From a virus (lineage: Duplodnaviria; Heunggongvirae; Uroviricota; Caudoviricetes), in the IMG/VR virus record IMGVR_UViG_2534682295_000008: 6,413 bases of DNA. One strand, given 5' to 3'. Shown one piece after another: positions 1 to 512 of the stretch (position 1 is its first letter; every line of letters begins with the position of its first letter). Below the pieces are notes generated by a model, which was not told the DNA's origin, did not search any database, and saw only the letters and a list, made by a program, of their open reading frames with translations. Position numbers and translations under genes: made by a program.

Positions 1-317
1 ACGCTGAAAAATTTCCTGAACCTTTCAGATCAAGAGCGATGTTAATTTGTTCAATCATCTGGTTTGGAAATCGGATGTTGCGGGTTGTTGTTCTGCGGGT
101 TCTGTTCTTCGATGACATAATGTTGCCCCATATTCAGTGTCGCTGATTTGTATTGTCTGAAGTTGTTTTTACGTTAAGTTGATGCAGATCAATTAATACG
201 ATACCTGCGTCATAATTAATTATTTGACGTGGTTTGATGGCGTAGATGCACGTTGTGACATGTAGATGATAATTATTATCATTTTGCGGGTCCTTTCCGG
301 CGATCCGACAGGTTACG
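1..317 (+). other. Non-coding genome right-end region upstream of cosN (cosQ-containing region by analogy with lambda); no convincing ORF
   Basis: From about 107 to 317 the sequence closely follows the right-terminal non-coding sequence of phage lambda as I recall it, ending in cgatccgacaggttacg immediately before the cohesive end. It is AT-rich and has no long ORF on the + strand. The exact cosQ position is not determined. Confidence 0.6.
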
Positions 318-329
318 GGGCGGCGACCT
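318..329 (+). other. cosN: cosN: 12-nt cohesive-end sequence GGGCGGCGACCT (terminase nicking site)
   Basis: Exact match to the lambda left cohesive end, flanked by ...caggttacg on the left and cgcgggttttcgctatttatgaaaattttccgg on the right, as at the lambda cos junction. A terminase operon begins about 180 bp downstream. Confidence 0.85.
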
Positions 330-366
330 CGCGGGTTTTCGCTATTTATGAAAATTTTCCGGGATC

Positions 367-377
367 CATGTCCGGTT
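367..377 (-). repeat. cosB R3-like element: inverted copy of AACCGGACATG (candidate small-terminase binding site)
   Basis: catgtccggtt at 367..377 is the reverse complement of the aaccggacatg core found at 426..436 and 456..466. It lies about 50 bp from the cohesive end, the position R3 occupies in lambda cosB. Confidence 0.6.
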
Positions 378-420
378 TCTCTTCAAGTTAACTATATGAA
401 AAATATAAAAACAGGTCTTC

Positions 421-436
421 TGTGAACCGGACATGA
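421..436 (+). repeat. cosB R2-like element tgtgAACCGGACATGa (candidate small-terminase binding site)
   Basis: 15 of 16 positions identical to 451..466. Direct repeat spaced 30 bp from the next copy, between cosN and the small-terminase start. Confidence 0.6.
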
Positions 437-450
437 ACAAAAAACAGACA

Positions 451-466
451 TGTAAACCGGACATGA
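451..466 (+). repeat. cosB R1-like element tgtaAACCGGACATGa (candidate small-terminase binding site)
   Basis: Second direct copy of the 16-mer, about 47 bp upstream of the Nu1-like start codon. Confidence 0.6.
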
Positions 467-512
467 CCGGTTTTGTTGTGATTGTGAGGTGAGAGTTTTT
501 GCGAGGTGAGGA

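What the first reader, a model, noticed from the sequence alone, without database searches (positions are those of the whole stretch)
107..512. Mosaic cos site: lambda-identical cosN and right end joined to non-lambda cosB
The sequence at 318..362 (gggcggcgacctcgcgggttttcgctatttatgaaaattttccgg) matches the first 45 nt of the lambda left end as I recall it, and 107..317 closely follows the lambda right terminus. Identity stops abruptly at 363: lambda continues with its R3/I1/R2/R1 elements (CGTTTCC-type), whereas this window has unrelated AACCGGACATG-type repeats. The Nu1-like protein is also clearly diverged from lambda Nu1 in its N-terminal DNA-binding part. This is the pattern expected for a terminase-specificity swap of the phage 21 kind: a shared nicking site with different cosB and small subunit. 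Because both genome ends are contiguous here, the window comes from a prophage, circular or concatemeric form, not virion-linear DNA.
Basis: partly seen in the sequence, partly recalled or inferred. Interest (0 to 1): 0.55.

Follow-up and report, generated by a model that had tools for sequence, protein, structure and literature searches.

The report
Lambda-type cos with foreign cosB/TerS
This is a real DNA-packaging start site of a lambda-like E. coli prophage: it keeps lambda's cutting site but carries a different recognition site and matching recognition protein, which is a known way for such phages to change which DNA they package.

Summary
Window 318-362 equals lambda bp 1-45 (45/45), 107-317 matches the lambda right end at 197/211, and identity ends at 362/363.

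The window has three segments:
- 3-362: a lambda-like right end with cosQ and cosN.
- 363 to about 1190: a foreign cassette with cosB, all of terS and the 5' end of terL.
- From about 1076-1500 onward: a head module about 96% identical to phage 21, not lambda.

cosB contains conserved 11-bp elements (CATGTCCGGTT) at lambda's R3 and R2 positions. A conserved A/T-rich, IHF-like stretch lies between them, and a third element lies 30 bp after R2.

The module occurs in 22% of complete E. coli genomes. The window is 99.8% identical to Sakai prophage Sp14, whose cos was aligned with lambda's in 2009.

It is most likely an uncharacterised packaging-specificity group. That makes it a new member of a known kind, of moderate interest.

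The parts
3..317 (+). Lambda-like right-end segment, equivalent to lambda 48188-48502. A minus-strand YlcI/YnfO family gene overlaps 1-118.
   Evidence: 291/315 identical to lambda. RefSeq annotation of the EDL933 equivalent.
288..294 (+). cosQ (GGGTCCT), the packaging termination subsite. It starts 30 nt before the first base of the cohesive end.
   Evidence: Identical to lambda's sequence at the equivalent position. It lies at the same distance from the end as the annotated cosQ of phage 21. 98.7% conserved in 68 distinct viral-contig variants.
316..331 (.). cosN, the nicking site. The 12-nt cohesive-end sequence GGGCGGCGACCT lies at 318-329; the part adds 2 flanking bp on each side.
   Evidence: Identical to the lambda, 21 and phi80 left ends. 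The definition of cosN is taken from PMC9026076.
330..362 (.). Spacer between cosN and cosB (lambda bp 13-45), identical to lambda.
   Evidence: 95.5% conserved among variants.
363..472 (.). cosB of a non-lambda, non-21 type.
   Evidence: Matches only PhiR12 phages in the phage collection. Not above shuffle background against the lambda, 21, phi80 or Gifsy-1 cosB.
367..377 (+). R3-equivalent TerS binding element CATGTCCGGTT (bp 50-60 from the left end).
   Evidence: Same position as lambda and 21 R3, bp 50-65. Invariant in 6 divergent E. coli variants. Contains the TCCGGTT core shared with distant relatives.
389..412 (-). I1-like site: a candidate IHF core TTTCATATAGTTA at 389-401 (minus strand), followed by an A/T tract.
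   Evidence: Bp 72-84, against the annotated phage 21 I1 at 74-86. 96-97% conserved, against 78-88% for spacers. The consensus match alone is not above chance.
425..435 (-). R2-equivalent element, inverted relative to R3, 58 bp centre to centre.
   Evidence: The R3-R2 span was exactly 69 nt in every listed match, although a 35-60 nt gap was allowed. 98% conserved.
442..452 (-). Degenerate copy with 2 mismatches; probably not functional.
   Evidence: Only 69-81% conserved, the same as spacer DNA.
455..465 (-). Third conserved element (R1 candidate), in the same orientation as R2 and 30 bp from it.
   Evidence: An exact copy. 96% conserved.
462..472 (+). Overlapping forward copy with 1 mismatch (CATGACCGGTT). 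It is an alternative R1 in the lambda-like orientation and forms a small inverted repeat with 455-465.
   Evidence: Not conserved in the O121 variant. Positions 466-472 are 87% conserved.
513..1022 (+). terS (Nu1-like small terminase, 169 aa, GTG start). Residues 1-55 form a winged-HTH DNA-binding domain of a distinct lineage. The C-terminal part is Nu1-like.
994..2922 (+). terL (gpA-like large terminase, 642 aa). The 5' part, 994 to about 1190, belongs to the foreign cassette; the rest is phage-21-like.
   Evidence: 588/642 aa identical to 21 gp2, but the first ~27 aa are unlike both 21 and lambda. Identity to 21 rises from 44% to at least 92% between 994 and about 1494.
1076..6359 (+). Phage-21-like head module: the rest of terL, W (2906-3112), portal B (3109-4701) and protease/scaffold C (4691-6196).
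   Evidence: 95.8% nucleotide identity to phage 21. W 67/68, B 523/530, C 491/501 aa identical.

Best explanation
Window 288-472 is a complete lambda-type cohesive-end site. cosQ, cosN and the spacer up to bp 45 are essentially lambda's. cosB and the cognate small terminase come from a different lineage. Proposed mechanism: the N-terminal winged-HTH domains of TerS (513-1022) bind the CATGTCCGGTT elements. An IHF-type bend in the conserved A/T-rich stretch (389-412) brings the inverted R3 (367-377) and R2 (425-435) together for a TerS dimer, and the third element (455-465) adds a further binding site. The TerS C-terminus holds TerL through the TerL N-terminus, which was inherited with it. TerL then nicks cosN about 40-50 bp upstream of R3 and produces lambda-identical 12-nt ends. 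Termination uses the shared cosQ and cosN. The outcome is a packaging-specificity module different from lambda's, and probably from 21's and N15's, placed in front of a phage-21-type head gene set. Shown here: the sequence anatomy, the positions, the conservation, the fold, and the co-occurrence of the domain with its motif. Inferred: binding, IHF involvement, and the specificity itself.
Against: There is no direct binding or packaging data for this cosB. The IHF consensus match is no better than chance. The best-conserved third element has the same orientation as R2 and lies 30 bp away, unlike lambda and 21, where R1 is opposite to R2 and about 44 bp away. The higher-order complex may therefore differ from lambda's. 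The R core shares TCATGTC..GG with phage 21's R sites, so cross-recognition with 21 is not excluded. Sp14 itself was not detected in phage particles.
Confidence: 0.8

Rival explanations
1. This cosB is a functional variant of the phage 21 type. Its R elements are 21-like enough that 21 terminase and this terminase recognise each other's DNA, so it is not a separate specificity.
For: The R cores share a 7-mer plus GG: 21 has TTTCATGTCGG(G/A)CC and the window has TCATGTCCGGTT. The downstream head module is 96% phage 21. N15 terminase packages lambda DNA despite a divergent recognition system, so asymmetric cross-packaging has a precedent (PMC4669245).
Against: The DNA-binding domain is not BLAST-similar to 21 gp1. 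It differs from 21 at both known discrimination positions (R19/K23 against E20/S24). The extra base inside the core shifts the register. Whole-cosB similarity to 21 is at background (z -0.3). The TCCGGTT half of the element follows the foreign domain family, not 21.
Confidence: 0.12
2. In this particular prophage copy the cos/terminase module is a decaying relic and no longer works, whatever the module type does elsewhere.
For: The closest match, Sp14, is a defective prophage whose DNA was not detected in particles. The EDL933 equivalent has a truncated major capsid gene. terL carries an unusual G9 run at 1254-1262 that replaces the conserved V-x-A codons.
Against: All cos subsites and the terS, terL, W, B and C reading frames are intact in the window. 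The elements are under visible constraint across hundreds of copies. Packaging of Sp4 was attributed to the Sp14 terminase.
Confidence: 0.1
3. The repeats are binding sites for a transcription factor, or parts of a terminator or attenuator upstream of terS, and have nothing to do with packaging.
For: A terminator-like hairpin is predicted at 454-473, and a second weak one at 359-375.
Against: The positions match lambda and 21 R3 and R2 to within a few bp, measured from cosN. The motif core co-occurs with the TerS DNA-binding domain across phyla at a fixed distance from cosQ. The hairpins are simply overlaps of the repeat copies.
Confidence: 0.03
4. It is a satellite-type (PICI-like) cos, read by a helper TerS bound to an Rpp-like redirecting protein.
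For: PICI cos sites also combine lambda-like cosQ and cosN with an unrelated cosB (PMC6739421). The best structural match of the domain is RppC.
Against: The locus encodes its own full-length TerS fused to a Nu1-type C-terminal domain, and also TerL, portal and protease. No separate Rpp-like gene was seen among the ORFs.
Confidence: 0.02

Closest known systems
Phage lambda cos (cosQ-cosN-cosB with R3-I1-R2-R1) and gpNu1
   Same: cosQ, the cohesive end and bp 13-45 are identical. An R3-equivalent lies at bp 50-60 and an inverted R2-equivalent about 58 bp away. An A/T-rich stretch lies at the I1 position. terS starts 196 nt from the end, against 191 in lambda. The TerS C-terminal part is 46% identical, and the N-terminal domain has the same winged-HTH fold.
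   Different: The R sequence is CATGTCCGGTT, not CGTTTCC-type. The DNA-binding domain is not alignable by BLAST and falls outside the Pfam Phage_Nu1 match. The wing loop is shorter. The best-conserved third element has the opposite orientation to lambda's R1 and lies 30 rather than about 44 bp from R2.
Phage 21 cos and gp1/gp2 (the classic lambda/21 specificity pair)
   Same: The logic is the same: a shared cosN with a private cosB and TerS. The window's TerL, W, portal and C are 92-99% identical in protein sequence to 21's. The R cores share TCATGTC..GG.
   Different: cosB as a whole, TerS (54/169 identical) and the first ~27-65 residues of TerL are not 21's. The R core has one extra base and ends in TT, not CC.
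N15 (simple cosB) versus Monarch (complex cosB) sharing one specificity
   Same: The same dichotomy is seen within this domain family. Distant relatives (705R4, phiARM81ld, LPPA33 and others) have a single compact site at the R3 position directly upstream of terS. The window has a complex R3-I1-R2-R1-like cosB with the same core.
   Different: The domain lineage and the motif are different. Whether the simple and complex forms share a specificity here is untested.
cos of O157:H7 Sakai prophages Sp4 and Sp14 (Asadulghani et al. 2009, PMC2669165, Fig. S8)
   Same: It is essentially the same element, 99.8% identical to Sp14. That paper aligned this cos and its Nu1 with lambda's and proposed that the Sp14 terminase packages Sp4.
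   Different: In the text I read, that work did not define R elements, the foreign DNA-binding domain lineage, the phage-21-like backbone or a specificity class. I did not read Fig. S8 itself.
Enterobacterial PICI cos sites read by Rpp-TerS
   Same: Lambda-like cosQ and cosN joined to an unrelated cosB.

Membership tests
Lambda-type cos site | 7-bp cosQ (GGGTCCT) about 30 bp upstream of the nick site | tested here: met
   288-294 is identical to lambda and lies at the same distance from the end as the annotated cosQ of phage 21.
Lambda-type cos site | cosN with a 12-nt 5' cohesive-end sequence related to GGGCGGCGACCT | tested here: met
   318-329 is identical to lambda, 21 and phi80. Actual nicking cannot be tested with these tools.
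Lambda-type cos site | cosB with an R3 element at about bp 50-65 and an inverted R2 across an IHF site | tested here: met
   R3 at bp 50-60 (+) and R2 at bp 108-118 (-), with invariant spacing.
Lambda-type cos site | IHF site I1 between R3 and R2 | tested here: inconclusive
   389-401(-) matches the consensus with 2 mismatches, which is no better than chance. Its position (bp 72-84) and conservation (97%) do fit.
Lambda-type cos site | R1 in the same orientation as R3, about 44 bp beyond R2 | tested here: not met
   The conserved third element, 455-465, has R2's orientation and lies 30 bp away. The forward copy at 462-472 has 1 mismatch and is less conserved.
Nu1-type small terminase (Pfam PF07471 / phrog_57) | Match to the family profile above threshold | tested here: met
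   Phage_Nu1 scores 67.9 bits (cut-off 30) but covers only residues 49-150. phrog_57 matches the full length at E 1.7e-55, together with lambda, 21 and N15 TerS. No NCBIfam model matches.
Nu1-type small terminase (Pfam PF07471 / phrog_57) | N-terminal winged-HTH DNA-binding domain with the gpNu1 fold | tested here: met
Nu1-type small terminase (Pfam PF07471 / phrog_57) | Gene lies between cos and terL and overlaps the terL start | tested here: met
   terS 513-1022 and terL 994-2922.
Lambda packaging-specificity group (lambda, 434, phi80) | CGTTTCC-type R elements and the lambda recognition helix (Q20, E24) | tested here: not met
   No such elements are present. cosB similarity to lambda and phi80 is at background. 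The helix has R19/K23 at those positions.
Phage 21 packaging-specificity group | TCATGTCGG(G/A)CC-type R elements and the gp1 recognition helix (E20, S24) | tested here: inconclusive
   The R core shares 7 nt plus GG with 21's but has a 1-bp insertion and a different 3' half. The DNA-binding domain does not match gp1. Functional cross-recognition cannot be tested with these tools.
N15/Monarch packaging-specificity group | N15-type R3 and TerS recognition helix | tested here: not met
   N15 bp 46-62 shows no resemblance to the window's element. N15 gp1 aligns only from residue 59 onward.
PICI (Rpp-dependent) cos | No own terS/terL; a separate Rpp gene redirects the helper's TerS | tested here: not met
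   The window encodes its own TerS, TerL, portal and protease.

The most novel reading that the evidence does not exclude
This is a further, experimentally uncharacterised packaging-specificity group of lambda-like phages. It has its own recognition code (TCCGGTT core), read by a widespread TerS domain lineage with at least 633 cluster representatives. It is the resident type in about a fifth of E. coli genomes and in several EHEC prophages per cell. There it would separate Sp4/Sp14-type prophages from the lambda-type terminase of co-resident Stx1 phages, and link them to one another, while all share the same cohesive ends. Its third R element, in a non-lambda orientation, would imply a different initiation complex.
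Probability: 0.55. Interest if true: 0.5.

Novelty: new member of a known kind. Interest (0 to 1): 0.4.

Why it matters
According to the papers read here, packaging specificity in lambda-like phages has been documented experimentally for only three types: lambda, 21 and N15 (PMC4669245). This module gives a testable further type with a clear candidate recognition motif and natural simple and complex cosB versions. It is abundant in pathogenic E. coli, where several lambdoid prophages share a cell. Which prophage terminase can package which prophage DNA helps decide which defective prophages, with their virulence cargo, get mobilised. The Sp4/Sp14 case (PMC2669165) suggests this matters in practice. 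Because the cohesive ends are shared with lambda and 21, packaged recombinants could still circularise.

Tried and rejected
- Two homologous-protein searches returned mostly truncated E. coli copies or short fragments. They served only to build an MSA, not to describe the family.
- A literature search for the PhiR12 phages found nothing relevant.
- An IHF consensus scan gave no enrichment. The I1 assignment therefore rests on position and conservation only.
- Global alignment of the whole cosB to the lambda, 21, phi80 and Gifsy-1 cosB was at background. I rejected the idea that this cosB is a diverged 21 cosB, apart from the R-core resemblance.
- The PICI/Rpp reading was rejected on gene content.
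- The 2-mismatch copy at 442-452 was rejected as a functional element because it is no better conserved than spacer DNA.
- The minus-strand ORF 342-542, annotated as a hypothetical protein in PhiR12, was judged probably spurious because it lies across the R elements.

Full report
**Observation**

A reconstructed lambda cos junction (right end plus left end) aligns to window 3-362 without gaps at 336/360. Window 318-362 equals lambda bp 1-45 exactly. Window 107-317 has 14 mismatches in 211, and window 3-317 has 24 in 315. Megablast against 50,697 phage records gives the same picture: dozens of lambda-like phages match 3-362, and every one of those hits stops at 362. Beyond that point, 363-1022 matches only the five PhiR12 phage records, at 97%. 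CATGTCCGGTT occurs exactly at 367-377(+), 425-435(-) and 455-465(-), with one mismatch at 462-472(+) and two at 442-452(-). All five copies lie within 106 bp. The window holds 8 matches in all at up to 2 mismatches, and none of 200 shuffles reached that number.

**What the window is**

The ORFs are a lambdoid packaging and head module: terS 513-1022, terL 994-2922, W 2906-3112, portal 3109-4701 and protease/scaffold 4691-6196. The unexpected result is that 1076-6359 is 95.8% identical at the DNA level to phage 21 and only 66-68% identical to lambda. At the protein level, TerL is 588/642, W 67/68, portal 523/530 and C 491/501 identical to 21.

The window is therefore a three-part mosaic:
- 3-362: a lambda-like right end with cosQ, cosN and the spacer.
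- 363 to about 1190: a cassette that belongs to neither lambda nor 21.
- The remainder: a phage-21-type head module.

The left boundary of the cassette is sharp, at 362/363. The right boundary is gradual. Identity to 21 is 44% at 994-1043, 80% at 1144-1193, patchy (58-78%) at 1344-1493, at least 92% from about 1494 and 97-100% from about 1994. The cassette thus carries cosB, the entire terS and the first ~27-65 codons of terL.

From my own knowledge of the lambda/21 chimera work of the Feiss laboratory, which I did not check here, the gpA N-terminus is the specificity domain for binding the gpNu1 C-terminus. PMC4669245 does state that the TerS C-terminus holds the TerL-binding domain. If so, the cassette is a self-contained functional unit: the DNA site, the DNA-binding domain, the TerS body and the matching TerL docking segment.

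**Provenance**

The whole window is 99.8% identical over 1-6359 to prophage Sp14 of O157:H7 Sakai and to its equivalents in EDL933 and other O157 strains. The cosB/terS part occurs in 1186 of 5426 complete E. coli genomes, with up to four copies each. Carriers include O26, O111, O121, O145 and CFT073. The full arrangement 1-1100 occurs in 711 genomes.

**Anatomy of cos**

- cosQ (GGGTCCT) lies at 288-294, at the same distance from the end as in lambda and as annotated in phage 21.
- The cohesive-end sequence lies at 318-329.
- From cosQ to bp 45, the window is 74/75 identical to lambda and 69/75 identical to 21.
[quoted passage not shown] Lambda and 21 R3 occupy bp 50-65.
- The inverted second element occupies bp 108-118. 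The annotated R2 of 21 is at 107-122.
- The centre-to-centre distance between them is 58 bp.
- In a scan of IMG/VR viral contigs that allowed a 35-60 nt gap, every listed match had exactly the same 69-nt span.
- Between the two elements, 389-401 on the minus strand reads TTTCATATAGTTA at bp 72-84. The annotated I1 of phage 21 is at bp 74-86. An A/T tract follows.
- As a consensus match this is no better than chance (34 matches in the window against 41 expected). I1 is therefore inferred from position and conservation only.

**Conservation**

I aligned six divergent E. coli variants. One is an 80%-identical O121 prophage with a different cohesive end, and one is a cosB remnant without terS. R3 is 100% conserved, R2 98%, the 455-465 element 96% and the I1-like stretch 94%. 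Spacers and the 2-mismatch copy are 69-85% conserved.

In 68 distinct sequences from 118 viral contigs, R3 and R2 are fixed by the search pattern, so only the other positions are informative. There the I1 core is 97% conserved, the A/T tract 96% and 455-465 96%. Spacers, the degenerate copy and positions 466-472 of the forward copy are 78-88% conserved.

The best-supported third element therefore has the same orientation as R2 and lies 30 bp from it. Lambda and 21 have R1 opposite to R2 and about 44 bp away. The overlapping forward copy at 462-472 remains an alternative R1.

**The TerS protein**

Residues 73-164 are 46% identical to lambda Nu1. The N-terminus does not align by BLAST. Pfam Phage_Nu1 matches residues 49-150 only, whereas it covers lambda Nu1 from 1 to 164.

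By tblastn, lambda, 21, N15, phi80 and Gifsy-1 align only from about residue 59-73 onward. The first 70 residues match Aeromonas phiARM81ld-like phages, Pseudomonas LPPA33 and Y8, and E. coli phage 705R4 at 49-58% identity.

The domain is nevertheless of the gpNu1 kind:
- The first 60 residues alone match phrog_57 at E 3.4e-10, in register with lambda, 21 and N15 TerS.
- An AlphaFold2 model built on a 21-sequence alignment has pLDDT about 90 over residues 1-55, with helices at 4-10, 15-22 and 38-54.
- Sequence-only and Foldseek tests were weak.

In both alignments made, the positions equivalent to lambda Q20/E24 and 21 E20/S24 are R19/K23. PMC4669245 names residues 20 and 24 as recognition and discrimination determinants.

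**Comparative evidence that the repeats are the TerS site**

In three distant phages with this domain, TTCCGGTTCCGGT lies just upstream of terS. A scan of one genome per species found 19 more loci, so 20 were scored together with 705R4.

In 16 of the 20, a tandem TTCCG[G/C]TTCCGGT-type motif lies 7-24 nt upstream of the terS start. Where a cosQ is recognisable, the motif is 77-85 nt downstream of it. These 16 are the only occurrences in 130 kb of both strands. The taxa include Pseudomonas, Aeromonas, Enterobacter, E. whittamii, Microbulbifer, Azospirillum and a Sericytochromatia MAG.

The window's element contains the same TCCGGTT core, and in the window cosQ-to-R3 is 79 nt. The relatives have a compact, N15-like cosB, while the window has a complex, lambda-like one. 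This mirrors the N15/Monarch pair described by Feiss and colleagues. The domain family is large, with 633 cluster representatives at E up to 1e-10, mostly TerS-sized proteins with the domain at the N-terminus.

**Relation to phage 21**

Over the whole cosB, the window is at shuffle background against lambda, 21, phi80 and Gifsy-1 (z -0.8 to 1.1). The controls lambda-21 and lambda-phi80 give z 7.3 and 23.5. The R cores do resemble each other, however: 21 has TTTCATGTCGG(G/A)CC and the window has TCATGTCCGGTT. I cannot tell whether this is chance, convergence or a relic of a 21-type cosB remodelled after the domain was replaced. For that reason I rate distinctness from 21 lower than distinctness from lambda.

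**Is it functional?**

There is no direct test. Indirect support comes from two sources. PhiR12 phages whose recorded hosts are K-12 and E. coli C carry the module. Asadulghani et al. found Sp4 DNA in DNase-resistant particles although its nu1 is disrupted, and attributed this to the Sp14 terminase because the two cos sites are identical. Sp14 itself was not detected in particles, so this particular copy may sit in a defective prophage.

**Novelty**

The principle of a shared cosN with a swapped cosB and TerS is textbook for lambda and 21. The Sp4/Sp14 cos was aligned with lambda's in 2009. In the papers I could search, I did not find any of the following for this type: a definition of the R elements, the recognition that the DNA-binding domain is a separate widespread lineage with its own conserved motif, the phage-21 backbone, or an assignment to a specificity group. 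PMC4669245 states that only the lambda, 21 and N15 specificities have been documented. I therefore file this as a new member of a known kind, of moderate interest.

Noticed in passing
window 1254-1262: A G9 homopolymer lies inside terL and encodes LLGGGGYF. It is also present in the EDL933 (Sp14-type) copy. PhiR12_1, phage 21 and lambda have mixed sequence there (LLGVAGYF, LLGVEAYF, LLGVYAYF). It is in frame, but it is a slippage-prone tract in an essential gene of a prophage reported not to be packaged.
   Followed up: partly
window 1-118 (minus strand): The 5' part of a YlcI/YnfO family gene overlaps the lambda-like right-end segment, according to the RefSeq annotation of the EDL933 equivalent.
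   Followed up: partly
window 342-542 (minus strand): A 66-aa ORF runs across the cosB repeats. PhiR12_1 annotates a hypothetical protein there (equivalent to window 343-465). It is probably a spurious gene call.
   Followed up: no
window 482-493 and 499-510: Direct repeat TTG(T/C)GAGGTGAG. The second copy is the Shine-Dalgarno region of the GTG-initiated terS. The role of the first copy is unknown.
   Followed up: no
window 454-473: Inverted repeat AAACCGG-ACATGA-CCGGTTT followed by a T-rich tail, scored as terminator-like. It arises from the overlap of the minus-strand R1 element with the forward 1-mismatch copy.
   Followed up: partly
window 6359-6413: The high identity to phage 21 ends at 6359, inside the head decoration gene. 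This is another mosaic boundary.
   Followed up: no
L016-L021, about 45-50 nt upstream of the TTCCGGTTCCGGT motif: The Pseudomonas and Microbulbifer relatives share GGGTAATTCG(A/G)G at a fixed distance before the motif. It is a candidate cohesive-end or cosN sequence for that subgroup.
   Followed up: no
L036 (E. coli O121 strain 201805972): An 80%-identical variant of the module has a different putative cohesive end (GGGCGGGAGCGG) and different flanks, but identical R3, R2 and R1 elements. Its terL is annotated as truncated.
   Followed up: partly
L039 (E. coli AST198): A cosN plus cosB remnant with R3, I1, R2 and R1 but no terS downstream. It is either an orphan cos site or a deletion derivative.
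   Followed up: no
L035 (EDL933 prophage around the match): The prophage context includes three tRNA genes downstream of Q, an IS1203 insertion, a PerC-family regulator just upstream of cos, and a truncated major capsid gene.
   Followed up: no
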